A DNA stretch of 64,000 nucleotides from Candidatus Magasanikiibacteriota bacterium (GCA_002716765.1 PBBY01000016.1:47322-111321); one strand, 5' to 3'. Positions 55 through 62,450 are shown, numbered from the stretch's first letter. Notes: generated by a model not told the origin, from the sequence alone. Made by a program: numbers and translations.

Positions 55-1422
55 TTATAATAAATGCACATCCTCTATTTCGCTCTTTTTGTTTCGAAGT
101 ACGACATCCTCTATGTGATACACACCATTTCTTGGCGCGTCCATAAATCCTTCAACTGCAGCCTGCGCAAGCCAACCAGAATCAAGCCAGTCAAATAACC
201 ATTCATCCGTATATCGTGGATCTTCTTGCTCAAAACCGCTCCCAACCGCATGAAGCCACGCTCTATTGTATTCTTCTTGCGACCCAACAGTTGGTGCCAT
301 AATAATAGGAACACCAAGACCTGAATAAAACGATAATTCGCTCGGCTTTGTCCATAATATATCTGTATGACAAAGCTTTTCATTAAATAGTTCAAAATAA
401 CGAAATTTTGACCGATGGAATAAAATCGAGATATTTTTTTTCTGCCGTGCATTCAAGCGTAAATTACGTAATACTTTTGTATAATAATCAAAAACATCAG
501 GTCGGGACCCGGCCACCAAAATAAGTGATACACTTCCCCTTTCTATGCAATCTTTTAAACTTTTTAATATAGTAATCCCTATATCACGCTGTGCTCCAGC
601 GCCACCAACAGCAAACATAATCGTAAGCGGTCTCTTTTCTTTAATATTACAATACTGTTTACCAAGATATTCTTGTAATGTATGCGAGTATTTTTTTTGA
701 TACACACCACGTGGATCGAGCTTTCCAACACGACACCCAAGACTTTTCTTTAATATTCGCAATGTTCCTCTGGTGCCAATATTTTCTTTTGGCAAAGGAA
801 ATCCTGTAACATAGATGTTTTTTTCTTGCACACCATACCGCATTAATCGTTCTTTTACTCGCTTATTTGGTGCAAAATAGTGTATACGACTTGTTTTTGG
901 ATTTAGTGGCGCCCACGCTCTACTTACATCGCTGTCGGTGCACAAACAATAAATGTCTCCTGTGTATCCATGCTCTTCGGCAAAAAAAGCAGTGGTAAAA
1001 AAGGTGGTAATATATGGCAGCGGCTCTTTATTGAGTTTTTCTATTAAATCTTTTCCCCAACCCTTTTTAATGGCCCCATACACTTGGCGTAATTGTGCTG
1101 TTGGTCTAGATAAATCTCTTTTTGGATAAAATGGTTTAATTCTTTGTAAATAATCCATGGTACCAAAAACAATCCTTCCGATAATTGGGAGCTTTTTCAT
1201 TCGCGAGATCGTTTCGTACAAACCCCTACCACCTTCCCAACGTCTTTTGTCGCTATTAGGAACCCCCGGATATGTGTTAGCACAAATTACATCGGATCCG
1301 TTATGTTTTTTAATGGAACGAGGTCGTGTTGCAATGTCTTTTAGGGGGTATGCTGCCCGTTGATGCCCATATCCCATGTCTACCGTTACAACATATACCT
1401 TTTTTCCTCCTTTTTTTGCCAT
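55..1422 (-). CDS. Family-28-like glycosyltransferase (MGDG synthase / UgtP-like diacylglycerol glycosyltransferase)
   Basis: N-terminus MAKKGGKKVYVVTVDMGYGHQRAA resembles the UgtP/MGDG-synthase N-terminal G-x-G-H motif. Length (455 aa) and C-terminal GGAGAQ region fit GT-B fold glycosyltransferases. Confidence 0.5.
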   Translation of the reverse strand: MAKKGGKKVYVVTVDMGYGHQRAAYPLKDIATRPRSIKKHNGSDVICANTYPGVPNSDKRRWEGGRGLYETISRMKKLPIIGRIVFGTMDYLQRIKPFYPKRDLSRPTAQLRQVYGAIKKGWGKDLIEKLNKEPLPYITTFFTTAFFAEEHGYTGDIYCLCTDSDVSRAWAPLNPKTSRIHYFAPNKRVKERLMRYGVQEKNIYVTGFPLPKENIGTRGTLRILKKSLGCRVGKLDPRGVYQKKYSHTLQEYLGKQYCNIKEKRPLTIMFAVGGAGAQRDIGITILKSLKDCIERGSVSLILVAGSRPDVFDYYTKVLRNLRLNARQKKNISILFHRSKFRYFELFNEKLCHTDILWTKPSELSFYSGLGVPIIMAPTVGSQEEYNRAWLHAVGSGFEQEDPRYTDEWLFDWLDSGWLAQAAVEGFMDAPRNGVYHIEDVVLRNKKSEIEDVHLL

Positions 1423-3718: not shown

Positions 3719-4567
3719 ATGAAATCAGGATTTGTTTTACTTATTGGCCGTTCAAATGTTGGAAAATCGACACTTCTTAACACACTTGTTGGAACAAAAA
3801 TTGCTGCAACCAGCTTCCGTGCACAACTTACACGTAATATTATTCATGGTGTAATGAATACGCCAGAAGGTCAGGCTATTTTTGTGGATACCCCCGGCAT
3901 GTTTAAACATAAAAAAAGTGAGTTGACTGGAAAATTAACCGAAAAAGTAAAAAATTCATTAGAAGATATAGATGCTATTGTATATATAGTTGACCCAACC
4001 AGAGAAATTGGCGTAGAAGAACGTGCTGTTTATGGTATGATTCGTCATCTAGACATTCCCAAAATTCTTGTTATTAATAAAAGTGACTTACCAGAAAAGG
4101 AAAGAAATCACCAAAAAGCATACGAAGCGTGGTCAAAAGATTTTGAAGCAGTCCTCTCACTTTCTGCGTTACGGGGAAGCCATATTACACCATTAAAAGA
4201 ATTGGTCATGTCTTATCTTCCAGAAGGTCAAGCACTCTATCCAAATGAACAGTTGACTAATGTAGATAATTATTTTTGGGTCGCAGAAATTATACGAGAA
4301 AAAGCATTTTCTGTTTTTGACAAAGAAGTGCCGTACTCTTTAACGGTAAATGTAGAATCAATTGAGGAGAAACCAAATATTTTTGTTATTCAGGCAAATA
4401 TTTTAACGAATGAAGATAGATATAAACGTATTATTATTGGAAAAGGGGGAGGTAAACTCAAAGAAATTGGTCAAATGGCAAGAAAGGAATTAGAACAAGC
4501 CTTGCACAAAAAGGTATTTCTAGAACTGGAAGTAGAAGTAGACAAACACTGGGTTGAGCGTATATAA
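3719..4567 (+). CDS. era: GTPase Era
   Basis: G1 motif GRSNVGKST, DTPG, NKSD, and a KH-domain C-terminus (KGGGKLKEIG). Confidence 0.9.
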   Translation: MKSGFVLLIGRSNVGKSTLLNTLVGTKIAATSFRAQLTRNIIHGVMNTPEGQAIFVDTPGMFKHKKSELTGKLTEKVKNSLEDIDAIVYIVDPTREIGVEERAVYGMIRHLDIPKILVINKSDLPEKERNHQKAYEAWSKDFEAVLSLSALRGSHITPLKELVMSYLPEGQALYPNEQLTNVDNYFWVAEIIREKAFSVFDKEVPYSLTVNVESIEEKPNIFVIQANILTNEDRYKRIIIGKGGGKLKEIGQMARKELEQALHKKVFLELEVEVDKHWVERI

Positions 4568-4599
4568 TACACTAACTACTTATTTCCGCTTTTATTTGT

Positions 4600-5967
4600 A
4601 TGCTTTATCTCTATAATTCACGAACAAAAGAAAAAGAAGCCTTTGTCCCAATTTACGACCATCATGCTAATATGTATACATGCGGACCAACGGTATACAA
4701 TTATGCCCACATTGGAAACTTACGAACCTATATTTTTGAAGATATATTGCGCCGCGTATTAAAATATAATGGGTACAAAGTAAAACATGTCATGAATATT
4801 ACCGACGTTGGTCATTTAACGGATGACGCCGACCAAGGTGAGGATAAAATGGAAAAAGGGTCAAAAAGGGAGGGGAAAACGGCATGGGAAATTGCAGAAT
4901 TTTACGAAAAAGCGTTTAAAAAAGATGTAACGGCACTCAATATTCTTGAACCAACCATATGGTGCAAAGCAACTGATCACATAGAAGAACAAATCGCGAT
5001 GGTTACAGTATTACTAGAAAAAAACCATGCATACAAAACAACTGATGGTATATATTTTGACACCACATCAATTCCCGACTATGGTGAGATAGCTAATATA
5101 CAAAACCAAAAGCTTGATGCCGGATCAAGAGTAGACATGGGGGAAAAAAAGAATATTCATGATTTTGCCTTGTGGAAATTTACAAAAGAAGGTGAAAGCA
5201 GGCAAATGGAATGGGTTGCATTTGAAAAAAAGGGGTTTCCTGGCTGGCATATAGAATGTTCGGCAATGGCCGTAAAATATTTAGGTGAACAATTCGATAT
5301 TCATTGTGGTGGTATCGACCATATTCCCGTTCATCACACAAATGAAGTTGCACAAACCGAAGCGGTAACAGAAAAAAAACCTTGGGTAAAATACTGGCTT
5401 CACGGAGAATTTTTGCTTATTGAAAAAGACAAAATGGCAAAATCGGGAGAAAATTTTATCACCCTCCAAACACTTAAAGAAAAAGGAATTGACCCACTCG
5501 CCTACCGATACTTTCTTCTTCAGGCACATTACAGAAAACAATTACACTTTACATTCGAAGCATTAGAAGCTGCATCCCAAGGATTAAAGCGATTAAAACA
5601 CACCATCGCAAATATCTCAGACGAAGCCGTAGAAGACATGAGCGTGGTTGGGTCATTTTTAGAAGCAATAAACGATGATTTAAATACACCAGAAGCTTTG
5701 GCTATATTGTGGAAAGGGCTGAAAAACAATGTTGTAACAAAAGAGATGGTAACAGATTTTGATAAAGTGTTGGGTCTAAAATTACTAGATTTACAAACGA
5801 AAGAAGAAATCATTCCAGAAAATATACAAATTCTAGCAGAAAAAAGAGCGCAAGCACGAAATAATAAAGACTGGGGATTAAGCGATTCATTACGAGATGA
5901 AATAACAACACTCGGATACGACGTAGAAGACACACCAGATGGGCAGCATCTATATAAACAAGAATAA
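4600..5967 (+). CDS. cysS: Cysteine--tRNA ligase
   Basis: MYTCGPTVYNYAHIGNLRTY (HIGH region) and KMAKSGENF (KMSKS-type) motifs. N-terminus aligns with E. coli CysS. Confidence 0.9.
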   Translation: MLYLYNSRTKEKEAFVPIYDHHANMYTCGPTVYNYAHIGNLRTYIFEDILRRVLKYNGYKVKHVMNITDVGHLTDDADQGEDKMEKGSKREGKTAWEIAEFYEKAFKKDVTALNILEPTIWCKATDHIEEQIAMVTVLLEKNHAYKTTDGIYFDTTSIPDYGEIANIQNQKLDAGSRVDMGEKKNIHDFALWKFTKEGESRQMEWVAFEKKGFPGWHIECSAMAVKYLGEQFDIHCGGIDHIPVHHTNEVAQTEAVTEKKPWVKYWLHGEFLLIEKDKMAKSGENFITLQTLKEKGIDPLAYRYFLLQAHYRKQLHFTFEALEAASQGLKRLKHTIANISDEAVEDMSVVGSFLEAINDDLNTPEALAILWKGLKNNVVTKEMVTDFDKVLGLKLLDLQTKEEIIPENIQILAEKRAQARNNKDWGLSDSLRDEITTLGYDVEDTPDGQHLYKQE

Positions 5968-5987
5968 CAAGAAAAAATTCAACACTT

Positions 5988-6752
5988 ATGCCATTAACAA
6001 TAAAAAAACCAATTGTATTTTTTGACCTAGAAACAACCGGCGTTGACCCGTTTAACGACCGGATCGTTCAAATTGGTTGCATTAGGATTGAGACCAACGG
6101 ATCAAAAACAGAAAAAGAATGGCTTATTAACCCTGGAATTCCCATTCCTGCCGCTGTCTCACAAATCCACGGCATTACAGACGACATGGTAAAAGATTCA
6201 CCACATCTTGGTGATATCGCACAAGAATTAAGAGATATGTTTTTTAGTGTTGACTTAGGTGGGTATAATGCAAAAAATTTCGACATTCCATTATTAGTTC
6301 AGGAATTTTTTCGTATCGGCCTAACACTTAATATTGAAGACATAAAGATCGTGGATCCAATGAAAATATTTCAAATAAAAGAACCACGAACCCTAACCGC
6401 GGCATATAAAAAGTTTTGTAATAAAGAATTGGATAATGCGCATAATGCAATGGCAGATATTCGTGCGACTTTAGCCGTGCTAGAAGCACAAATTGACCAT
6501 TACGAAGATGTGCCAAACACAATCGAAGATATTCATGAATTTTGTTTTCCAACTGATCCGGACGCGTATGATGCAGAGGGAAAACTACGATACATCGATG
6601 GCCATTTAACGATTAATTTTGGGAAAAACAAAGGAAGAACATTGCAAGAACTTGCACTTACCGATCCAACATATTTGGAATGGATTATAAAAGGCTCGTT
6701 TTCCGACATAGTTAAAAAAGCAGTTCGCCAAGTTCTTGGATTTAAGGCATAA
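5988..6752 (+). CDS. DEDDh 3'-5' exonuclease (DnaQ / Pol III epsilon-like)
   Basis: Exo I motif FFDLETTG at N-terminus, and a later HNAMAD (Exo III H-x4-D). Confidence 0.7.
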   Translation: MPLTIKKPIVFFDLETTGVDPFNDRIVQIGCIRIETNGSKTEKEWLINPGIPIPAAVSQIHGITDDMVKDSPHLGDIAQELRDMFFSVDLGGYNAKNFDIPLLVQEFFRIGLTLNIEDIKIVDPMKIFQIKEPRTLTAAYKKFCNKELDNAHNAMADIRATLAVLEAQIDHYEDVPNTIEDIHEFCFPTDPDAYDAEGKLRYIDGHLTINFGKNKGRTLQELALTDPTYLEWIIKGSFSDIVKKAVRQVLGFKA

Positions 6753-6753
6753 A

Positions 6754-7215
6754 TTATTCTCCCAAACACGCCATCTCAATAGCAGTCGCGGCCCATGAAT
6801 CACCGTGACTTTTTTCTCCAACACTTCTTGCAAGTGCTTGTTCTTGATTTAAACAAGTAAGAATGCCAAAAATAATTGGTATGTTTTTTTGCATTTGCAA
6901 ATCCATACACCCACGTGTAACAGCATCGCTAATATATTCAAAATGCATTGTTTCTCCTTTTATAAGCACCCCAATAGGAATAATAGCATCAACATTTTCT
7001 TTTTCTATAAGTCTTTTTGCACCATACACAAGTTCATAAGAGCCAGGAACTTCGTATATAACAATATCTTTTTCTTCTACACCACGATTTTGCAGTCCGC
7101 GAATGATCTGCTCTTTTAGCGCAGTTGTACAAATGGCATTCCACCGTGCAACCACGATCCCAAAACGTAAGGCTTTTCCACTTAAATCCGGACTAAATGT
7201 AACACCCTTTTCCAT
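6754..7215 (-). CDS. ribH: 6,7-dimethyl-8-ribityllumazine synthase
   Basis: 153 aa. RFGIVVARWN..VPGSYELV..HFEY pattern aligns along the length with E. coli RibH. Confidence 0.85.
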   Translation of the reverse strand: MEKGVTFSPDLSGKALRFGIVVARWNAICTTALKEQIIRGLQNRGVEEKDIVIYEVPGSYELVYGAKRLIEKENVDAIIPIGVLIKGETMHFEYISDAVTRGCMDLQMQKNIPIIFGILTCLNQEQALARSVGEKSHGDSWAATAIEMACLGE

Positions 7216-10782: not shown

Positions 10783-10822
10783 AATATCTTGCTAAATTCA
10801 CCTAAATACGTTACTATTGTAC

Positions 10823-12190
10823 ATGAAAAGAGTCTATTTTGCAACAATTATGAAATACCCACCATATCCAATATCACACACCGCCAGACGAATAATTATG
10901 GCACTTCTTATAGTCTCTTTTTGTGTTTTATCCCCCATTATTGTATTATATACCGCTGGATATAGGTATGATTTTTCTACAAACCGCATACTCTCCAGAG
11001 GTTCAATAAGTGTTGATATAGACACAAAAGATATTACTGTTTTTATAAACAATAAACAAATTACCCAAAAACCACCAATCCGACTTTCTAATCTTGCACC
11101 AAATAGTACATATACTATCTCTATCCAAAAAGACGGGTATCATACATGGCAACACGATGTATTGGTCAAAAGTAATCAAACCACATATATTAAGGATATT
11201 TTTTTGATTAAAAAATCTACACCAACTAATATTACAAAAAATACTCGCCATATTTCGACGCTCTCTTTTTCTCCGTCCGGTGAGTATGTACTAAAAAAGA
11301 TTAAAAGAAAAAAAGATAATACCATCATATTCCTCCTTTACTCAATAACAAAAAAAGAAGATGTTCGCCTCTTGATACCAACAACACCTCAAACAATTGT
11401 TAGCTGGTCCCCGGATAATGACCATCTGCTTATTTATGAAAAAAATAAAGCATCACACATAACAATGATAGCGGCTCATGACCCACATACTCGCCATCTT
11501 TCTCCAACACCACTAAATCTACAAGAATTTCAATGGGGAGGGGTACAAAAAAACCCTACACTATTTATGCGAAGTGAAAACGATCTCTACTATTTTTCTG
11601 AGAATATTTTTACTCGCATTGCACTACAAGTTGAGCCTGTCTGGCATGTAGACAAAAACCAAGTAATTTGGGAGTATAACAAAGAAAATAGCTATATCAC
11701 CAAAAGGAAAAACACCACCAAAGAAAATGTCTTCTACTCACAAGACCCTATTACCACCATTGTTTCAATCAACAAAGACAGGATTATTGCCAAAAAACGC
11801 CAATCAATTTCTATTATAACCAGACCAAAGCAAAATCAAGCGGCTCAAGAAAATACAATAGCAGCACATCACACTTACTATAACAACAAGAAGAAGGAAT
11901 GGATTCTGTGGTCACCTTGGGAGCTATGGTCAGTATATCCGAACGGTAACACATCCCTTCTTAACAGAACAAGTGAACCAATCTCACTTGTTCGTGAGTT
12001 TGATTCTTATGGGGTTTTACTTCTTGGTTCAAAAAACACAGTATCGGTATTTAATCCGGGGTATTATATTACCAACAATATTATTAACATCGACACAATC
12101 GAAGATATGCGGATTAACAGGACAATGGAAAAAATATATATAATCGGCACACATAATAACACATATGGTGTTTTTGAATTCTCTTATTAA
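10823..12190 (+). CDS. Membrane-anchored PEGA-domain plus PD40/TolB-like beta-propeller protein
   Basis: N-terminal TM (ALLIVSFCVLSPIIVLY). PEGA-like segment (ISVDIDTKDITVFINNKQ..YTISIQKDGYHTWQHDVLV). Repeated SxSPxG/SWSPDNDHL PD40-like motifs. The start is ambiguous (TTG 10817 / ATG 10823). Confidence 0.5.
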   Translation: MKRVYFATIMKYPPYPISHTARRIIMALLIVSFCVLSPIIVLYTAGYRYDFSTNRILSRGSISVDIDTKDITVFINNKQITQKPPIRLSNLAPNSTYTISIQKDGYHTWQHDVLVKSNQTTYIKDIFLIKKSTPTNITKNTRHISTLSFSPSGEYVLKKIKRKKDNTIIFLLYSITKKEDVRLLIPTTPQTIVSWSPDNDHLLIYEKNKASHITMIAAHDPHTRHLSPTPLNLQEFQWGGVQKNPTLFMRSENDLYYFSENIFTRIALQVEPVWHVDKNQVIWEYNKENSYITKRKNTTKENVFYSQDPITTIVSINKDRIIAKKRQSISIITRPKQNQAAQENTIAAHHTYYNNKKKEWILWSPWELWSVYPNGNTSLLNRTSEPISLVREFDSYGVLLLGSKNTVSVFNPGYYITNNIINIDTIEDMRINRTMEKIYIIGTHNNTYGVFEFSY

Positions 12191-12230
12191 TAGCCAAAAA
12201 AAATACCGATAAGATGTCGGTATTTTTTTA

Positions 12231-14651
12231 TTATGCAACTATATTTACTAATTTTCCTGGAACATATATTACTTTTTTAATCACTTTTTCTGCTAGCCAT
12301 GGTACAATATGCGCATCTGTTTTGGCTGCCGCCGTAATATCCTCTTCCGATGAATCAGCATTAACAGTAATCGTTGCTCGCAACTTTCCATTAACTTGAA
12401 TAGCGATTGTCACCTCTTCTTCTTGCAAATATTCCTCTTTATAGGCAGGCCAAGATTCGTATACAATAGTGTTGATATTACCTAGATTTTGCCACATCTG
12501 TTCTGAAATATGTGGAGCAAAAGGAGAAAGAAGTAGTATAAATTTTTCAAAATATCTTTTTGGTATTGTGTCGAGTTTCTGAAACGTATGGGATAATTCC
12601 ATCATTTTTGCCACCGCCGTATTAAAACTCATTGATTCTATATCTTCACTTACTTTTTTAATCGTTTTATGTAACGCACTCTGTGCTTCAGGATTTTCTG
12701 GGGTAGAGTCAGAAACTTTAGTTTGTAATAACCAAATCCTATCTAAAAACCGCTTCACACCAACAAGCCCATTAGTGTCCCATTCGGCAACCTGATCAAA
12801 CGGTCCCATAAACATAATATAGGTACGCAATGTGTCTGCGCCAAACTCATGTATTATGTCATCTGGATTTACCACATTTCCTTTGCTTTTACTCATTTTT
12901 TCTCCTCCTTTTGCTAAAATCATTCCATGACTTGTGCGCTTTTTATACGGTTCTTTTGTGGGAACTAAATCAATGTCAAATAAAAATTGATGCCAAAAAC
13001 GAGAATACAGTAAATGTAATACCGTGTGCTCCATACCACCATTATACCAATCAACTGGTGACCAATATGTAAGTGATTCTCTTGAGGCAAGTTCGTTGTT
13101 ATTATTTGGATCACAATAGCGCAAAAAATACCAACTTGAACCTGCCCAGTTTGGCATGGTATCTGTTTCTCTTTTTGCCGGACCAGCACATGTTGGACAA
13201 GTGGTGTTTACCCAATCAGACATAGCAGCAAGTGGAGATTCGCCAGTATCGGTTGGTTCATATTTTTCTACATGCGGAAGCTTGACTGGCAACTGATCTT
13301 CTGGCACAGGAACCCAACCGCAATCTACGCAATGAATAAGTGGAATTGGCTCTCCCCAATAGCGCTGGCGAGAGAAAACCCAATCACGGAGCTTATAATT
13401 AATAACCTTTTTTCCCCAACCTTTTTCCTCTATGTAATCCATTATTTTTTGCGTAGCCTCATGAATGTCCAAACCATTAAGAAAGCCACTATTAATCATA
13501 GTGCCAGATTCTTCTTGAACTTGTTCTATTTTAGTAATAGGTGTTGTATCACCATTTTTATCGACAACAACTCGAATAATGTCAATGTCTTTTGCTTTGG
13601 CAAATGCGAAGTCTCTTTTGTCGTGACCCGGAACACCGACGACCGCACCAGTTCCAACATTTCCAAGAACATAGTCTGCTACCCAAATTGGTATTTTTTT
13701 ATTATTTAGACTATTTATACAATAGGATCCCGTAAATACTCCTGTCTTTTCTTTATCTTCTGCGGTACGCTCTATCTCCTTTGTTAGTTTTGCTTTTTTT
13801 ACATATTCATCAACTTCTTTTTTCTTATCACTTTTAGTAATTGTGGAAACCAATGGATGTTCTGGCCCAACAACAACAAAGGTGGCTCCAAAGTTTGTGT
13901 CAGGGCGTGTTGTAAAACATACCACATTCTCCTCACTTCCTTCGACTTTATATGTAATATTTACCCCCTCCTTTCTTCCAATCCAATGCTCCTGTTGCAC
14001 TTTTGCCCGTTTTATATAATCCACCTCTTTCAATCCTTCAAGTAAACTATCTGCATATTTTGTTATAGCAAGCATCCATTGCTCTTTATCTCGTTTTTCT
14101 ACTTCTCCACCACATCTTTCACAGTTTCCACCTACTATTTCTTCATTTGCTAAACCAATTTTACAACGTATACACCAATTAATCGGCTTATTTTTTTTAT
14201 AAGCCAAACCCCGCTCAAACAATTGTAAAAAAATCCATTGTGTCCACTTATAATACTGAGGATCAGTGGTGTCTACCGTACGAGACCAATCAAAACTATA
14301 CCCAAGCAATTGGAGCTGTCGTGTAAAATTCTCTATATTTTCTTTTGTTACCTCTGCTGGCGGTCTTCCTGTTTTAATCGCATAATTTTCTGTTGGTAAA
14401 CCAAATGCATCAAATCCCATTGGAAATAAGACATTATACCCCTGCATTCTTCGTTTTCGACAAATAATATCCATTGCTGTATAGGACCGAGGATGACCAA
14501 CATGGAGCCCAGATCCCGAGGGGTATGGAAATTCTACCAAACCATAAAATTTCTTTTTTTGTGCATCTTCTTTTACTACAAAAGTCTCCTGCTCTTTCCA
14601 GTAGTCTTGCCACTTTTTTTCTATATCTTTTGGATTATACGGCGTTTGCAT
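12231..14651 (-). CDS. leuS: Leucine--tRNA ligase
   Basis: FPYPSGSGLHVGHPRSYT (HIGH) and KMSKSKGNVV motifs. 806 aa. Confidence 0.95.
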   Translation of the reverse strand: MQTPYNPKDIEKKWQDYWKEQETFVVKEDAQKKKFYGLVEFPYPSGSGLHVGHPRSYTAMDIICRKRRMQGYNVLFPMGFDAFGLPTENYAIKTGRPPAEVTKENIENFTRQLQLLGYSFDWSRTVDTTDPQYYKWTQWIFLQLFERGLAYKKNKPINWCIRCKIGLANEEIVGGNCERCGGEVEKRDKEQWMLAITKYADSLLEGLKEVDYIKRAKVQQEHWIGRKEGVNITYKVEGSEENVVCFTTRPDTNFGATFVVVGPEHPLVSTITKSDKKKEVDEYVKKAKLTKEIERTAEDKEKTGVFTGSYCINSLNNKKIPIWVADYVLGNVGTGAVVGVPGHDKRDFAFAKAKDIDIIRVVVDKNGDTTPITKIEQVQEESGTMINSGFLNGLDIHEATQKIMDYIEEKGWGKKVINYKLRDWVFSRQRYWGEPIPLIHCVDCGWVPVPEDQLPVKLPHVEKYEPTDTGESPLAAMSDWVNTTCPTCAGPAKRETDTMPNWAGSSWYFLRYCDPNNNNELASRESLTYWSPVDWYNGGMEHTVLHLLYSRFWHQFLFDIDLVPTKEPYKKRTSHGMILAKGGEKMSKSKGNVVNPDDIIHEFGADTLRTYIMFMGPFDQVAEWDTNGLVGVKRFLDRIWLLQTKVSDSTPENPEAQSALHKTIKKVSEDIESMSFNTAVAKMMELSHTFQKLDTIPKRYFEKFILLLSPFAPHISEQMWQNLGNINTIVYESWPAYKEEYLQEEEVTIAIQVNGKLRATITVNADSSEEDITAAAKTDAHIVPWLAEKVIKKVIYVPGKLVNIVA

Positions 14652-58806: not shown

Positions 58807-58944
58807 ACCTATAATTAATACCTTATCAATTATACCTATGATAGCACTTTCCTTAACTGCTGTCCACGAAAACACAAAAGTGGTGGCAATTCATAAAAAT
58901 ATTTGATATACTATATACAATTACCTATTTTTTATAGTAATAAA

Positions 58945-59520
58945 ATGGAACCTAAAAAAACAACACAACAGGAAGCTGAGGTACGACAACCAGAGGAATA
59001 TTTACCCAAGACAATACAACCAGAATATACCCGACCCACCCAACCAAAAGAGTTAGAAAAACCACCAATACCGCCGGAATTACCAAAAGAAGAAAAGGTA
59101 TATCAAGAATCAAAAGAAGTACCAAAAACAGCACAAGTCCCAGAAGCACCGCCAAAAAAGACAGAAGAAGGTATAGACAGATTAACAAAACTATTAAAAA
59201 GAAAGAAGCCTAAAAAAACACACATTCCACAAGTGCGAAACGACTTAACGGTGCAAATCGAAAAAATCTTAGAAGAAGGTCTAAAAGATGCCTACCAAGA
59301 GTTAACCATTACCCAAAAACAAGAATTTAAAATAAAAGGCGAAGAAATTACCTACGAAATCCAACAACTCGTAGGAGAAAACCGTGTAAAAGTAAAAAAA
59401 ATATTTACCCTTATTTTAGAGTGGCTTAAACTGCTTCCAGGAGTGAACAAATTCTTTTTAGAACAGGAAGCTAAAATTAAAGCCGATAAAATCATTTCTG
59501 TAAATAACAGATCTTCATAA
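58945..59520 (+). CDS. Hypothetical P/K/E-rich protein, disordered N-half and structured C-half
   Basis: Low-complexity PKE/PPE repeats then a helical C-terminal domain. Its stop is 1 nt before the next ATG, so the two genes are translationally coupled. Start ambiguous (TTG 58903 / ATG 58945). Confidence 0.4.
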   Translation: MEPKKTTQQEAEVRQPEEYLPKTIQPEYTRPTQPKELEKPPIPPELPKEEKVYQESKEVPKTAQVPEAPPKKTEEGIDRLTKLLKRKKPKKTHIPQVRNDLTVQIEKILEEGLKDAYQELTITQKQEFKIKGEEITYEIQQLVGENRVKVKKIFTLILEWLKLLPGVNKFFLEQEAKIKADKIISVNNRSS

Positions 59521-59521
59521 T

Positions 59522-62095
59522 ATGCCACTTTTTTTGTTGCAATTTTTTGCTCCACAAGCACAACAACCACGAATTACGACACAACTGGGTGATGTGTTTG
59601 ATTTTTTTTGGATAGGAATATTTATTGCCACACTACTCGCTATTATATCTATAGCCTATATTTTAAGAAAAGTATTACATGCAAAATCAAAATCAGTTAA
59701 CGCATTCGACAGAAAGGTAGTCCAGATCTCCGTACCAAAAGAAAGAAAATCAGAAGGGCAAGGTGGTCAGGCTGGCCAAGAAGACAGACTCGAACAAATA
59801 AAGGAAGAAATTGGTATTACCGAAACCTTTTTTTCTACGATTGCAGGGTTACGTGCAAAAAAAGGCATAAAAAGATGGTTTTTTGGCAGAGAGGATCTAT
59901 TTTCTTTTGAAATGGTTATGCGAGATAGTTTGATTTATTTTTATATTGATGCAAGAAAAGAGCATATAGCACTTATAGAGCAACAAATTCACGCACAATT
60001 TCCATACGCACAAATTGATGAAATGGTGGATTATAATATTTTCAATGAAAAGAGTACTATTGTTGGCGCCCATGTCTATGGCGCAAAAAAGCATGTGTTC
60101 CCACTAAAGACATACAAAACAATGGACTCAGATCCACTTTCTGGATTACTCAATGTGTTGGCAAAGATCCGAGAACAAAATAGCTCTGCCGCGATTCAAT
60201 ATGTGGTGCGTAGCGCAAAGAAAAAATGGCGTCGTGAAGCAATTCGTATTGTTCGAGAAGTGAAAAAAGGGCAAAAGTTTGAACAAGTTGCCATTGAATC
60301 AGGGTTTTCACGTAGCATACGAAAAACAACCGAATTTGTTGGAAGCATGTTTTCTAAAAAAACAGAGCAAGAAAGTCATTATCAACTTTCTGCAATGGAA
60401 GAAGAGATGCTTAAAGGAATCGAAGAAAAAATAAGTAAAGGTGGATTAGACGTTACCATCCGATTATTAAGTATTTCAGATAATGAAGCAATAGCAAAAT
60501 CAAACCTTGATAACCTTATAAATGCCTACAGTCAATACAATTTATACCGTTTTGGTAATGTATTTAAAGCTGCGATCCCAAGAAATCAAAAACAGCTTAT
60601 CCGTGACTTCATATTTCGCTCTTTTCACGAAACAAAACACATTGTCTGTAATACCGAAGAAATGTCATCACTATGGCATTTACCAATCCATTCTACAGAA
60701 GCACCAAATATTGCATGGCTAAAAGGAAGAAGTGCTCCACCACCAACAAATTTACCAAAAGAAGGATTATCGCTTGGCTTTGTTGACTATCGCGGTATTC
60801 GTAATGAAATTAAATTAAAACAAAAAGATAGGCAAAGACATCTATATATCATAGGAAAATCAGGAAGTGGAAAATCGGTTACCATTGCAAATCTTGCTAT
60901 TCAAGATGTGCAAAATGGACATGGTGTGTGCATTGTTGACCCACATGGAGATTTGGTTGAAGCAGTTTTAGAACATGTACCAAAACACCGCGCTGATGAT
61001 GTAATTATTTTTGACCCATCCGACACCGAAAGACCAATTGGACTAAACATGCTTGAAGCAAAAACAAAAGATGAAATGGATTTTGCGGTACAAGAAATGA
61101 TTGGTATTTTTTATAAACTTTTTCCACCAGAAATGATTGGGCCAATGTTTGAACACACCATGAGAAATGTTATGCTTACGTTAATGGCAAACCATGAAAA
61201 CCCTGGAACTGTTATAGACATACCAAGAATGTTAGTTGATGATGACTATGTAAAACGGTACCTAGATAAAGTAACCGATCCAGTGGTAAGAACATATTGG
61301 GAAAAAGAAATGGCGCAAACCACACAACACACCAAATCAGAGATGCTTGGTTATCTTATTTCAAAAATTGGACGGTTTGTTGGAAATGAAATGATGAGAA
61401 ATATCATGGGACAACAAAAGTCTGGGTTCAACTTTAGAGACATAATGGATAATCAAAAAATATTATTAGTTAATTTAGCAAAAGGAAAAACTGGAGAAGT
61501 AAATTCCAAACTTCTTGGTTTAATTGTTGTAGCAAAACTCCAAATGGCCGCAATGGGAAGAGCCGACATGGCTGAAGACCAGCGAAAGGATTTCTTTCTG
61601 TATATTGATGAGTTTCAAAACTTTATTACTGATTCTATTGCCACCATACTTTCAGAAGCCCGTAAATATAGATTAGATCTTATTGTTGCCCACCAATACA
61701 TGGGGCAGTTAGTAGACGACAAAGGAAAGCCAGAAATTCGAGAAGCTGTTCTTGGAAATGTAGGAAGTATGATGGTTGGTCGTATTGGCCCAGAAGATTC
61801 AGAAATACTTGCAAAAGAATATGCTCCGGTTTTTGGTTCCTATGATTTACTTAATGCACCACAGTTTTCATTCTACACAAAAGTACTCATAGACAATCAG
61901 GCAAGCAAGCCGTTCTTAATGGGCGCCTACCCCCCAGTTGAAGGAAACAGAGAACTTGGTAACACAATCAAGCAGTTGTCACGCCTAAAGTTTGGTCGAG
62001 ACAAAAGAATCGTTGAAGAAGAAATTCTAGAAAGAACCAAACTAGATAACCCTGGTGCACAAAGTAGCTCAGATTTAGCAGATATGACCTTGTAA
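59522..62095 (+). CDS. Membrane-anchored P-loop ATPase of the TraD/VirD4/HerA-FtsK superfamily (type IV coupling-protein-like) with an unknown ~400-aa N-terminal domain
   Basis: One N-terminal TM (FFWIGIFIATLLAIISIAYIL). Walker A IIGKSGSGKS, then VDPHGD (DPKGE/DPHGEY-like), Walker B FFLYIDEFQNF and IVAHQYMGQL (Q-x2-QL motif of TraG/VirD4). Confidence 0.6.
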   Translation: MPLFLLQFFAPQAQQPRITTQLGDVFDFFWIGIFIATLLAIISIAYILRKVLHAKSKSVNAFDRKVVQISVPKERKSEGQGGQAGQEDRLEQIKEEIGITETFFSTIAGLRAKKGIKRWFFGREDLFSFEMVMRDSLIYFYIDARKEHIALIEQQIHAQFPYAQIDEMVDYNIFNEKSTIVGAHVYGAKKHVFPLKTYKTMDSDPLSGLLNVLAKIREQNSSAAIQYVVRSAKKKWRREAIRIVREVKKGQKFEQVAIESGFSRSIRKTTEFVGSMFSKKTEQESHYQLSAMEEEMLKGIEEKISKGGLDVTIRLLSISDNEAIAKSNLDNLINAYSQYNLYRFGNVFKAAIPRNQKQLIRDFIFRSFHETKHIVCNTEEMSSLWHLPIHSTEAPNIAWLKGRSAPPPTNLPKEGLSLGFVDYRGIRNEIKLKQKDRQRHLYIIGKSGSGKSVTIANLAIQDVQNGHGVCIVDPHGDLVEAVLEHVPKHRADDVIIFDPSDTERPIGLNMLEAKTKDEMDFAVQEMIGIFYKLFPPEMIGPMFEHTMRNVMLTLMANHENPGTVIDIPRMLVDDDYVKRYLDKVTDPVVRTYWEKEMAQTTQHTKSEMLGYLISKIGRFVGNEMMRNIMGQQKSGFNFRDIMDNQKILLVNLAKGKTGEVNSKLLGLIVVAKLQMAAMGRADMAEDQRKDFFLYIDEFQNFITDSIATILSEARKYRLDLIVAHQYMGQLVDDKGKPEIREAVLGNVGSMMVGRIGPEDSEILAKEYAPVFGSYDLLNAPQFSFYTKVLIDNQASKPFLMGAYPPVEGNRELGNTIKQLSRLKFGRDKRIVEEEILERTKLDNPGAQSSSDLADMTL

Positions 62096-62183: not shown

Positions 62184-62450
62184 CTATGCGTCTGGATTTG
62201 TAAGATGTCCTGAAACAAGTTTTGTCATTTCGAACATATTTACTTCGTCTTTTCCAAATATTGGTCGAAGGTTGTCATCTGCAAATATGTTTCTTTTGTT
62301 TTCTGGGTTTTGCAAGTTATTTTTCTTGATATACTCCCACATTTTTTTTACAACTTCTGTTCTTGGTAGCGGTCCTTTTCCTACCACTGCTTCTAGTTCA
62401 GCAGAAAGGTTTAATGGTCTTGCCAAAGCGGGATTGAGTTTTCTTGCCAT
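62184..62450 (-). CDS. SWIB/MDM2-domain protein
   Basis: 88 aa. LSAELEAVVG…RTEVVKKMWEYIKKNNLQNPENKRNIFADDNLRPIFGKDEVNMFEMTKLVSGHL matches the SWIB domain consensus. Confidence 0.7.
   Translation of the reverse strand: MARKLNPALARPLNLSAELEAVVGKGPLPRTEVVKKMWEYIKKNNLQNPENKRNIFADDNLRPIFGKDEVNMFEMTKLVSGHLTNPDA

What the first reader, a model, noticed from the sequence alone, without database searches (positions are those of the whole stretch)
58903..62095. Translationally coupled pair: disordered P/K/E-rich protein plus membrane-anchored TraD/VirD4/HerA-like ATPase with a novel 400-aa N-terminal domain
The 857-aa protein has a single N-terminal TM helix, then about 400 aa without recognisable motifs, then a C-terminal P-loop NTPase. 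That domain carries Walker A GKSGSGKS, a DPHGD box, Walker B (hhhYIDEF) and a QYMGQL motif, the hallmark set of FtsK/HerA/TraG-VirD4 DNA-translocating or coupling ATPases. No other type IV secretion or conjugation genes are nearby (no VirB4, VirB6 or relaxase), so this is not a canonical T4SS locus. It is fused 1 nt downstream of a gene for a Pro/Lys/Glu-rich, largely disordered protein. The architecture (TM, unknown domain, coupling-type ATPase) is unusual and could be an orphan substrate-translocation or DNA-uptake/export motor, which is of interest for host-associated small-genome bacteria.
Basis: partly seen in the sequence, partly recalled or inferred. Interest (0 to 1): 0.65.

Follow-up and report, generated by a model that had tools for sequence, protein, structure and literature searches.

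The report
Orphan type IV coupling ATPase pair
This gene pair from a Candidatus Magasanikbacteria (CPR) genome encodes a membrane-anchored VirD4/TraG-type "coupling" ATPase with an uncharacterised N-terminal domain (Pfam DUF8128) plus a small partner protein; the family is a core gene across CPR bacteria, and its apparent counterpart in the one genetically tractable CPR species is essential.

Summary
Two same-strand ORFs are separated by TAA-T-ATG, and the 857-aa protein has one N-terminal TM helix, a roughly 370-aa domain, and a P-loop ATPase carrying the quoted motifs. The ATPase passes Pfam thresholds for T4CP families (TrwB_AAD_bind, TraG-D_C). The "novel" N-domain is already Pfam DUF8128, with no known function and no literature. 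Its predicted fold matches only VirB4 N-terminal domains in the PDB, at modest TM-score.

The family is not rare. It occurs in at least 599 species genomes spanning CPR lineages, always in housekeeping context. DUF8128-T4CPs also sit in the coupling-protein slot of conjugation modules on Bacillus, Embleya and haloarchaeal plasmids.

CPR proteins split into two clades. The window protein groups (91% bootstrap) with the type that includes Saccharimonadales proteins matching SEML1_0142. That gene and its small upstream neighbour are essential by Tn-seq. The other paralogue type is dispensable.

A small same-strand upstream ORF is conserved in position but not in sequence.

Best reading: a domesticated coupling ATPase, possibly the "missing" T4CP of the essential CPR type IV secretion system. 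The substrate and the T4SS link are inferred, not shown.

The parts
58883..58931 (+). Promoter-like hexamer pairs in the 69-bp divergent region between metG (- strand, start at 58875) and the pair
   Evidence: GTGGCA-18-TATACT with an extended TG, and TTGATA-17-TATTTT. These are consensus matches only and are not enriched over shuffles. They overlap the TTG at 58903, which argues for ATG 58945 as the real start.
58945..59520 (+). Small partner protein gene (191 aa from ATG; ORF listed from TTG 58903 as 205 aa)
   Evidence: public gene call of 191 aa, no Pfam on record. No TM segment. No Pfam, NCBIfam or PADLOC family above threshold.
58945..59229 (+). N-terminal P/K/E-rich low-complexity half of the partner (res 1-95)
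   Evidence: 17 P, 17 K and 16 E in 95 residues (53%). Poorly alignable among homologues.
59230..59508 (+). Conserved C-terminal domain of the partner (res 96-188), motif FKxKGEE...WLKxxPGVNxFFLEQEAKIKxDKI
   Evidence: phmmer/jackhmmer hits (E 1e-8 to 1e-46) to the ORF immediately upstream of the ATPase gene in about 27 related loci. Alignment.
59518..59524 (+). Gene junction TAA-T-ATG (1-nt spacer), compatible with termination-reinitiation coupling
   Evidence: In related loci the gap is typically -4 to +20 nt.
59522..62095 (+). 857-aa DUF8128-T4CP ATPase gene
   Evidence: 100% identical to P0001 from a Candidatus Magasanikbacteria MAG, which carries PF26449, PF10412 and PF01935.
59603..59665 (+). 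Single N-terminal transmembrane helix (res 28-48). It is followed by a K/R-rich stretch, so the rest of the protein is predicted to be cytoplasmic.
   Evidence: hydropathy; helix 23-62. Topology follows the positive-inside rule and is an inference.
59705..60805 (+). DUF8128 domain (res 62-428), an alpha/beta domain with a VirB4-N-terminal-domain-like predicted fold
   Evidence: Precomputed PF26449. 1,630 representatives at 50% clustering. AF2 pLDDT 84.8, pTM 0.83. The top 14 Foldseek PDB matches are all TrwK/VirB4 chains, E 1e-5 to 1e-3, TM ~0.40. Invariant residues E130, P194, Q226, K303, R314, R366, H386 and P388.
60809..62041 (+). T4CP-type nucleotide-binding domain (res 430-840)
   Evidence: TrwB_AAD_bind at 430-776, DUF87 at 424-521, TraG-D_C at 693-776. 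SXT_TraD and CD1115 VirD4-like. TrwB and DotL. Foldseek to TrwB TM 0.58-0.65, also Cagbeta, DotL and HerA.
60854..60877 (+). Walker A GKSGSGKS (res 445-452)
   Evidence: G445, G448, G450 and K451 are invariant.
60938..60952 (+). DPHGD box (res 473-477), aligned with the DPNGD of TrwB
   Evidence: alignment (ivDPhGDlve vs IVDPNGDMLS). D473, P474 and G476 are invariant.
61067..61408 (+). All-helical insertion within the NBD (res ~516-629), positionally equivalent to the all-alpha domain of T4CPs
   Evidence: AF2 secondary structure: helices 516-629 between strands 494-497 and 647-651. The region is covered by the TrwB_AAD_bind alignment. The equivalence is inferred.
61592..61615 (+). Walker B FFLYIDEF (res 691-698)
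   Evidence: D696 and E697 are invariant.
61652..61711 (+). SEARKY ... AHQYMGQL block (res 711-730), a conserved sensor/arginine region of TraG/VirD4-type ATPases
   Evidence: E712, A713, R714, K715, Q725 and Q729 are invariant. Aligned to the TrwB 'tkGRKaGLrvvaGlQstsQL' stretch.

Best explanation
The pair is a two-gene operon for a domesticated type IV coupling-protein (T4CP, VirD4/TraG/TrwB-class) ATPase and a small accessory protein.

Shown:
- The 857-aa protein is a member of the DUF8128-T4CP family: one N-terminal TM anchor, a cytoplasmic DUF8128 domain, and a catalytically intact T4CP-type NTPase.
- The same two-domain protein occupies the coupling-protein slot of conjugation modules on Bacillus and Embleya plasmids, next to a 'replication-relaxation' gene and beside a separate VirB4-type ATPase. 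In a haloarchaeal module it occurs split into two genes.
- In CPR bacteria the gene is chromosomal, lies among housekeeping genes, has no relaxase, is found across CPR lineages, and has a tree that mirrors CPR classes.
- The window protein belongs to the CPR clade that contains the Saccharimonadales type.

Inferred:
- That Saccharimonadales type includes SEML1_0142. It and its 139-aa upstream neighbour SEML1_0141 are scored essential by Tn-seq, whereas the second paralogue type (SEML1_0293-like) is dispensable.
- The protein forms a membrane-tethered hexameric ring. ATP hydrolysis in the ring threads a polymer substrate (nucleic acid or unfolded protein) towards a membrane channel.
- The most likely channel is the chromosomal, essential CPR type IV secretion system encoded elsewhere, which was reported to lack a recognisable coupling protein.
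- The VirB4-NTD-like DUF8128 domain is the docking module to that membrane complex.
- The small upstream protein, a disordered tail plus a helical domain that evolves fast, is a lineage-specific adaptor or regulator. Comparable partners of other T4CPs are CagZ with Cagbeta, TraM with TraD, and DotM/IcmSW with DotL.
For: T4CP identity:
- PF10412 scores 50.1 bits (cutoff 20.5) over 430-776, PF12696 23.8 (cutoff 22), and PF01935 36.5 (cutoff 23.2).
- The best NCBIfam matches are SXT_TraD and CD1115 VirD4-like, all far below their full-family cutoffs.
- TrwB and DotL are the best PDB sequence matches. Foldseek gives TM 0.58-0.65 to TrwB, and also matches Cagbeta and DotL.
- Walker A, Walker B and the sensor residues are invariant.

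DUF8128:
- Precomputed Pfam on the identical protein.
- A confident AF2 model.
- The N-domain alone matches only VirB4/TrwK among PDB folds at E <= 1e-3.

Plasmid relatives in the T4CP slot:
- tblastn hits on 615 plasmids cover both domains.
- The DUF8128 HMM gives E 1e-37 and 1e-29 (Bacillus), 7.5e-37 (Natrinema stand-alone gene) and 2e-19 (Embleya). It gives nothing for the adjacent VirB4-type ATPases, PrgJ or PcfC.

Core CPR gene:
- More than 1,673 and 6,824 homologues.
- At least 599 species genomes across CPR lineages.
- Housekeeping neighbours.
- CPR proteins are monophyletic against the plasmid proteins at 93% bootstrap, with subclades following CPR classes.

Partner: a same-strand ORF of 90-330 aa lies directly upstream in 55 of about 79 loci, with gaps mostly -4 to +120 nt.

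Essentiality link:
- Wang et al. 2023 Tables S1/S2 (PMC10633639) list SEML1_0142 as ES/ES/ES, SEML1_0141 as GD/ES/ES and SEML1_0293 as NE/NE/NE.
- A Saccharimonadales protein of identical length (P0381, 1,019 aa, PF26449) shows matching synteny.
- The window protein groups with that type at 91% bootstrap (39.7% identity, against 33.7% to the 0293-like P0245).

Against: - No T4SS component lies near the gene in the window or in any of the 80 related loci examined. Functional linkage to the CPR T4SS is therefore pure inference.
- I could not test co-occurrence with virB4 across whole genomes.
- I did not have the SEML1_0142 sequence. Its family membership rests on product name, exact length, domain boundaries and synteny.
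- The tree is neighbour-joining on a small sample.
- Canonical T4CPs have a two-TM N-terminal domain. This protein does not.
- The partner protein is not conserved in sequence across CPR: hhalign probability is below 1% between families. A common role for these partners is therefore assumed, not shown.
- No relaxase is present, so the substrate is unknown.
Confidence: 0.55

Rival explanations
1. An autonomous membrane-anchored polymer translocase that no longer works with any T4SS. On this view a T4CP was exapted for a CPR-specific core process, such as uptake or export of nucleic acid at the host interface, or another envelope-associated housekeeping task.
For: - The gene is never linked to T4SS genes in 80 loci.
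- The 2025 survey found only 148 of 5,713 CPR T4CP homologues near virB4 and raised exaptation explicitly.
- The context is housekeeping, with DnaX-like, aaRS and ATP synthase genes nearby.
- CPR bacteria depend on host-derived nucleic acids, and the uptake route is unresolved (preprint 10.64898/2026.06.21.733656).
Against: - T4CPs are commonly encoded away from the channel genes.
- A single TM helix cannot form a channel by itself, so some partner channel is still needed.
- Plasmid relatives clearly work inside T4SS modules.
- comEC deletion does not affect Southlakia viability, so essentiality is not explained by classical DNA uptake.
Confidence: 0.3
2. A divergent VirB4-type assembly or energising ATPase (functionally VirB3-VirB4-like) rather than a substrate-receptor T4CP.
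For: - The full-length model's top Foldseek hits are TrwK/VirB4 over about 930 columns.
- The N-domain alone matches only the VirB4 N-terminal region.
- The length and two-domain plan resemble VirB4.
- The N-terminal TM helix recalls VirB3-VirB4 fusions (established knowledge of T4SS architecture).
Against: - Sequence profiles favour T4CP families. The VirB4-type models score low: AAA_10 14 bits against a cutoff of 27.5, no CagE_TrbE_VirB hit, and VirB4_plasma 22 bits against 590.
- In plasmid modules the family member co-exists with a separate VirB4-type ATPase and sits beside the relaxase-like gene.
- The global TM-score to VirB4 is only ~0.30, with rmsd 16 A.
Confidence: 0.1
3. A chromosome-segregation or division DNA pump substituting for FtsK, or a remnant of an integrated conjugative or defence element (for example a MADS mad8-like ATPase).
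For: - FtsK/HerA superfamily membership.
- DnaX-like genes lie within four genes in 20 of 80 loci.
- PADLOC mad8 is the best-scoring named profile for the core, at 65 bits.
Against: - Southlakia has its own canonical, essential FtsK with 4TM, alpha and gamma domains.
- PF01580 scores only 16.4 bits against a cutoff of 24.
- No integrase, relaxase, methyltransferase or other mad genes are nearby.
- GC content is uniform across the locus.
- Vertical, class-congruent inheritance argues against a mobile or defence island.
Confidence: 0.05

Closest known systems
Type IV coupling proteins TrwB (R388), VirD4, TraD/TraG, PcfC/CD1115 family, DotL, Cagbeta
   Same: The ATPase core has the same Walker A, DPxGD, Walker B and Q-rich blocks. 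It has a helical insertion at the all-alpha-domain position. It passes the Pfam T4CP thresholds and gives TM ~0.6 to TrwB. It is membrane anchored at the N-terminus. Some family members carry long disordered C-terminal tails, as TraD and DotL do.
   Different: It has one TM helix followed by a roughly 370-aa DUF8128 domain, instead of a compact two-TM N-terminal domain. The gene is chromosomal, vertically inherited and relaxase-less, and is unlinked to T4SS genes.
DUF8128-T4CPs of conjugation modules on Bacillus subtilis plasmids (NZ_OX419581.1, NZ_CP032854.1), an Embleya plasmid (NZ_CP108778.1) and Natrinema pNVE500
   Same: The same two-domain family: DUF8128 HMM E 1e-19 to 1e-37, full-length HMM E 1e-75 to 1e-108. 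The Embleya protein also has a single N-terminal TM helix.
   Different: These sit next to a replication-relaxation gene and a Tcp/PrgI-type T4SS with a separate VirB4-type ATPase. The Bacillus versions lack the TM helix. The Natrinema version is split into two genes. Identity to the window protein is only 22-27%, and none of them is preceded by the window-type small protein.
VirB4 (TrwK of R388; PDB 7o43, 7o42, 8rtd)
   Same: A two-domain plan (N-terminal domain plus TrwB-like ATPase). The DUF8128 model matches only the VirB4 N-terminal region among PDB folds.
   Different: No sequence-profile similarity. TM is only ~0.40 for the N-domain and ~0.30 globally. The ATPase half is closer to T4CPs by every profile.
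'T4CP homologues' of Patescibacteria (Quinonero-Coronel et al. 2025, PMC12102498) and SEML1_0142 / SEML1_0293 of Southlakia epibionticum (Wang et al. 2023, PMC10633639)
   Same: This is the same population of genes. The survey counted 5,713 VirD4-like homologues in 2,918 genomes, mostly far from virB4. Southlakia has two genes with the same layout.
   Different: The papers do not describe the DUF8128 domain, the two paralogue clades or the small upstream partner. The 2025 paper discusses only a non-essential homologue. The Tn-seq table shows that the other one, and its small neighbour, are essential.

Membership tests
T4CP (VirD4/TraG/TrwB family) | P-loop NBD of TrwB type that passes curated profile thresholds | tested here: met
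   PF10412 50.1 bits against 20.5. PF12696 23.8 against 22. Homologues also carry PF02534. TrwB is the best PDB match.
T4CP (VirD4/TraG/TrwB family) | All-alpha domain inserted in the NBD | tested here: inconclusive
   The AF2 model has a helical insertion at res 516-629 in the expected position, and the region is covered by the PF10412 alignment. No residue-level superposition was inspected.
T4CP (VirD4/TraG/TrwB family) | N-terminal membrane domain with two TM helices | tested here: not met
   There is one hydrophobic segment (res 28-48), followed by DUF8128. pCF10 PcfC shows two segments in the same test.
T4CP (VirD4/TraG/TrwB family) | Encoded with a relaxase and/or T4SS channel genes | tested here: not met
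   None in the window or within +-10 kb, and none in the related CPR loci. The feature is met for the plasmid relatives.
T4CP (VirD4/TraG/TrwB family) | Hexameric ring, nucleic-acid-stimulated ATPase, substrate recruitment | not testable with these tools
   Needs biochemistry or multimer modelling.
Pfam PF26449 (DUF8128) | Match to the family profile | tested here: met
   A precomputed PF26449 hit exists on the identical protein P0001 and on all listed homologues. The local Pfam copy lacks this model.
VirB4 | VirB4-type N-terminal domain | tested here: inconclusive
VirB4 | VirB4-type ATPase profiles (CagE_TrbE_VirB, AAA_10) and adjacency to VirB3/VirB6 | tested here: not met
   AAA_10 scores 14 bits against 27.5, and there is no PF03135 hit. 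No VirB3 or VirB6 gene is nearby.
FtsK/SpoIIIE | FtsK motor profile, 4TM N-domain, gamma domain | tested here: not met
   PF01580 scores 16.4 bits against 24, over 33 residues only. There is a single TM helix. A CPR organism has its own canonical FtsK.
HerA (HerA-NurA) | HerA central and C-terminal domains, NurA partner | tested here: not met
   DUF87 is met at 36.5 bits, but HerA_C scores 17.2 against 22 and the NCBIfam HerA models are far below cutoff. No NurA-like neighbour is present.
MADS defence system (mad8) | mad8-like ATPase within an 8-gene mad operon | tested here: not met
   The mad8 profile scores 65 bits on res 438-753. No other mad genes are present, and the neighbours are housekeeping genes.

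The most novel reading that the evidence does not exclude
DUF8128-T4CPs are the unrecognised, essential coupling ATPase of the Patescibacteria type IV secretion system. The VirB4-like N-terminal domain docks the ring onto the VirB3/VirB6 platform, which would make the family an evolutionary intermediate between VirB4 and classical T4CPs. Together with a fast-evolving small adaptor, the motor moves the substrate, possibly host-derived nucleic acid, that makes the T4SS indispensable for epibiotic life.
Probability: 0.2. Interest if true: 0.85.

Novelty: new variant of a known kind. Interest (0 to 1): 0.55.

Why it matters
The type IV secretion system is the only secretion machine shown to be essential for a CPR bacterium's growth on its host. 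Its substrate is unknown, and its coupling protein was reported missing.

This locus represents a pan-CPR, vertically inherited T4CP subfamily with an uncharacterised VirB4-like N-terminal domain. Its apparent Saccharimonadia member and that gene's small partner are essential in published Tn-seq data, yet they are not discussed in the literature I could search.

If this ATPase is the missing coupling protein, it is a direct handle for asking what CPR bacteria move across the host interface. Possible approaches are substrate cross-linking, pull-downs and Walker-motif alleles in Southlakia. The relatives on Bacillus, actinomycete and haloarchaeal plasmids would also provide tractable systems for working out what DUF8128 does.

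Tried and rejected
- A profile search of DUF8128 against PDB sequences found only low-complexity matches to designed repeat proteins, which I reject as artefacts.
- hhalign of the family profiles against single PrgJ and PcfC sequences, and BLASTP of the ATPase half against them, were too weak to discriminate T4CP from VirB4.
- I tested pGO1 TrsD (the VirB4-N-terminal-like protein abundant in CPR), TrsE and TrsK against the DUF8128 profile. There was no significant match.
- R388 (BR000038) is not in the plasmid collection.
- I looked for homology between the different upstream small-protein families. There is none: hhalign probability is below 1%, and none has a Pfam family.
- The long family members (1,000-1,570 aa) have no fused informative domains, only disordered tails.
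- L077 was suspected to be the SEML1_0293-type paralogue. It is a WWE3/Microgenomates orthologue carrying a misleading assembly label.
- The cluster look-up did not reveal a Southlakia-named sequence.
- The MADS paper gave no domain information for mad8.
- No tRNA or Rfam element was found in the window.


Full report
OBSERVATION

The two ORFs exist as described: 58903..59520 (+) and 59522..62095 (+). The junction is TAA-T-ATG.

The public gene call for the identical contig starts the first gene at ATG 58945, giving 191 aa. Promoter-like hexamers at 58883-58931 overlap the TTG at 58903. I therefore take 58945 as the start.

They are invariant or nearly invariant in an alignment of 45 homologues reaching down to 35% identity.

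The protein has one N-terminal hydrophobic helix at res 28-48. A K/R-rich stretch follows it, so the bulk of the protein should be cytoplasmic. This topology is inferred from the positive-inside rule.

The upstream protein is only half disordered. Residues 1-95 are 53% P+K+E. Residues 96-188 form a conserved, helical-looking domain.

ORGANISM AND CONTEXT

The 857-aa protein is 100% identical to a hypothetical protein of a Candidatus Magasanikbacteria MAG from a TARA Oceans assembly. GC content is uniform at about 36% across the window.

The neighbours are housekeeping genes:
- Upstream on the opposite strand: the F-type ATP synthase operon, NUDIX, TatD, CvpA and MetRS.
- Downstream: SWIB, DnaX, an ABC transporter and glycosyltransferases.
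- Elsewhere in the window: LeuRS, UvrA, UvrB, IF-2, LepA, RecJ, MurJ, CTP synthase, CysRS, MurA-like and others.

No T4SS, pilus, relaxase or integrase gene is present. No tRNA or Rfam element was found.

WHAT THE ATPASE IS

The C-terminal half passes the Pfam gathering thresholds for T4CP families: TrwB_AAD_bind at 50.1 bits over res 430-776, TraG-D_C at 23.8 bits, and DUF87 at 36.5 bits. VirB4-type and FtsK-type models stay below threshold.

The best NCBIfam matches are TraD and VirD4-like models. The best PDB sequence matches are TrwB and DotL.

A confident AF2 model (pLDDT 87, pTM 0.75) superposes on TrwB with TM 0.58-0.65. It also matches Cagbeta, DotL and HerA. The model shows an all-helical insertion at res 516-629, at the position of the T4CP all-alpha domain.

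THE N-TERMINAL DOMAIN

It is not unknown to databases. Every homologue carries a precomputed PF26449 hit, named DUF8128. The local Pfam copy lacks this model. No paper in the searchable library mentions DUF8128.

An exhaustive search with the domain alone found 1,630 representatives at 50% clustering.

A separate AF2 model of the domain is confident (pLDDT 84.8, pTM 0.83). In a Foldseek search of the PDB, its top 14 matches are all chains of TrwK/VirB4 from R388 (E 1e-5 to 1e-3, TM about 0.40). The next fold is unrelated, at E 8e-3. The full-length model also ranks VirB4 first, over about 930 aligned columns, although with a poor global TM of 0.30.

DISTRIBUTION IN CPR

The family is very large: more than 1,673 hits with the window protein and 6,824 with a Saccharimonadales member.

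The best 80 include assemblies labelled Magasanik-, Uhr-, Falkow-, Buchanan-, Komeili-, Staskawicz-, Berkel-, Peregrini-, Peri-, Morani-, Woese-, Curtiss- and Levybacteria and Paceibacterota. Assembly labels are not always reliable.

Besides the upstream ORF, the recurrent neighbour families in these loci are a DnaX-like family of about 525 aa, CysRS (the 468-aa family) and one uncharacterised family of about 211 aa. No T4SS family recurs.

THE PARTNER

The window-type small protein is found immediately upstream, on the same strand, in about 27 loci. These are exactly the loci whose ATPases are closest to the window's.

In more distant lineages, a same-strand ORF of 90-330 aa still sits directly upstream in most loci: 55 of about 79, with gaps mostly from -4 to +120 nt. 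These ORFs fall into separate sequence families with no detectable homology to each other (hhalign probability below 1%) and no Pfam family.

The pairing is therefore conserved in position and general style, a low-complexity N-terminus followed by a short helical C-terminal domain, but not in sequence.

RELATIVES OUTSIDE CPR

tblastn against 72,556 plasmids found 615 records. The main groups were Bacillus (334), Streptomyces (56), Clostridium (31), haloarchaea, Sulfolobus (12) and Thermococcus. The alignments span both domains.

- **Bacillus subtilis plasmids (two examined).** The homologue (886-913 aa) lies directly upstream of a "replication-relaxation family" gene. A Tcp/ICEBs1-like module follows, with TcpC-like and TcpE proteins (plus TcpD in one of the two), a separate VirB4-type ATPase of about 850 aa and a large VirB6-like protein. 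One plasmid also encodes a peptidoglycan endopeptidase elsewhere in the stretch.
- **Embleya plasmid.** An 812-aa homologue with a single N-terminal TM helix sits between a PrgI-family gene plus an ATPase on one side and a replication-relaxation gene plus NlpC/P60 on the other.
- **Natrinema pNVE500.** DUF8128 is a stand-alone 395-aa gene overlapping the start of the T4CP-like gene, within a cluster that also encodes a pilin and a conjugal-transfer protein.

The DUF8128 HMM hits these proteins at E 1e-19 to 1e-37. It does not hit the adjacent VirB4-type ATPases, pCF10 PrgJ or PcfC.

So DUF8128-T4CPs are the coupling proteins of a set of monoderm and archaeal conjugation modules. The CPR genes are domesticated relatives of these.

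TWO CPR PARALOGUE TYPES AND ESSENTIALITY

Quinonero-Coronel et al. (PMC12102498) counted 5,713 VirD4-like T4CP homologues in 2,918 Patescibacteria genomes. Only 148 were near virB4. Because the homologue they considered in Southlakia epibionticum is not essential, they suggested possible exaptation.

Wang et al.'s tables (PMC10633639) list two genes with this layout:
- **SEML1_0293** (921 aa, with PF10412, PF12696 and PF01935) is called NE/NE/NE.
- **SEML1_0142** (1,019 aa, "TraM recognition domain-containing protein", P-loop at res 381-800) is flagged as a core and Patescibacteria-enriched family and is called ES/ES/ES. A 139-aa hypothetical gene, SEML1_0141, lies 12 nt upstream and is called GD/ES/ES.

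I could not obtain those sequences, so I used proxies:
- A Saccharimonadales protein of identical length (P0381, PF26449) has matching synteny: [125 aa][143 aa, 6-nt gap][1,019 aa][189 aa on the opposite strand].
- A 941-aa DUF8128 protein (P0245) has a sigma-70-type gene 145 nt upstream, as SEML1_0293 does with SEML1_0294.

In neighbour-joining trees with 200 bootstraps:
- The 0293-like proteins form a separate clade (100%).
- The window protein groups with the 0142-like proteins and all other CPR orthologues (91%).
- All CPR proteins are monophyletic against the plasmid proteins (93%).

The window protein is 39.7% identical to P0381 and 33.7% identical to P0245. Within the large clade, the branching follows CPR classes, which points to vertical inheritance. 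Southlakia also has its own canonical, essential FtsK, which excludes an FtsK-replacement role.

MECHANISM

Shown: domain composition, intact catalytic motifs, family membership, operon structure, distribution and context.

Inferred: a membrane-tethered hexameric ring threads a polymer substrate. It hands the substrate to a channel, most plausibly the essential chromosomal CPR T4SS. Wang et al. described that system as lacking a recognisable coupling protein. DUF8128 would act as the docking module, and the small protein as an adaptor or regulator.

The main rival is a T4SS-independent translocase, because no genetic linkage to T4SS genes is seen anywhere. A divergent-VirB4 reading is less likely, because plasmid relatives co-exist with a separate VirB4 and the sequence profiles favour T4CPs. 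Defence-island and FtsK-like readings are disfavoured.

VERDICT

The thing is an ordinary member of a very common protein family, so it is not an oddity of this genome. The family itself is a distinct, uncharacterised variant of T4CPs. It has a VirB4-like N-domain, core status across CPR, and an apparent essential member. That makes it moderately interesting and experimentally actionable.

Noticed in passing
window 62184-62450 (- strand): An 88-aa SWIB/MDM2-domain protein (PF02201, E 4.8e-31) is encoded convergently just downstream of the ATPase gene. To my knowledge SWIB domains are mainly eukaryotic chromatin-remodelling modules and are uncommon in bacteria (Chlamydiae being the known case).
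   Followed up: no
L003:4699-5577 and 20 other related loci (positions +1 to +3, same strand): An uncharacterised family of about 211 aa, with no Pfam hit, recurs directly downstream of the DUF8128-T4CP gene in 21 of 80 loci. Its C-terminal motif is MVEGVFNGQ..IGEDG..Y.VP.NYASKSK.V.GD.L. It is absent from the window locus, where SWIB and DnaX follow instead.
   Followed up: partly
P0256, P0246 and P0253 (family members of 1,000-1,400 aa), C-terminal tails: The long S/Q/P/E-rich disordered C-terminal extensions share a short motif, FLDEWL(A/D)KRR. It faintly resembles the EWLK segment of the window's small partner and might be a short linear interaction motif.
   Followed up: no
L086:9773-10960 and 10920-14003 (Natrinema versiforme pNVE500): Here DUF8128 is a separate 395-aa gene overlapping the start of the T4CP-like ATPase gene, so the two domains can function as separate polypeptides. 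This parallels the split TrsD/TrsE arrangement of pGO1, although no sequence link to TrsD was found.
   Followed up: partly
L084 and L085 (B. subtilis plasmids NZ_OX419581.1 and NZ_CP032854.1): MOB-suite types both plasmids 'non-mobilizable'. Yet they carry a Tcp-like T4SS, a DUF8128-T4CP and a replication-relaxation family gene. They are probably conjugative, with a relaxase type that typing tools do not recognise. Of the 615 plasmid records with a match, 450 carry the same label.
   Followed up: no
L004, L006, L007, L077 and other TPA_asm loci: The organism labels of many third-party assemblies are unreliable for these contigs ('uncultured Gammaproteobacteria', 'Bdellovibrionales', 'Candidatus Saccharibacteria'). 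The proteins are 62-74% identical to Magasanikbacteria proteins, or of WWE3/Microgenomates type in the case of L077.
   Followed up: partly
L093:2758-3855 with 4001-6826; compare SEML1_0294/0293: The dispensable paralogue type of the DUF8128-T4CP is preceded by a sigma-70-family gene (Sigma70_r4 plus HARE-HTH) rather than by a small partner ORF. I saw this in P0245's locus (two assemblies, L093 and L094), and the Southlakia gene table shows the same arrangement. It is a conserved pairing that I did not explore.
   Followed up: no
window 55-1422 (- strand) and 10817-12190 (+ strand): Two mid-size ORFs have only weak annotation: a 454-aa protein with DUF6938 (E 3e-16) and a 457-aa protein with a single PEGA domain.
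   Followed up: no
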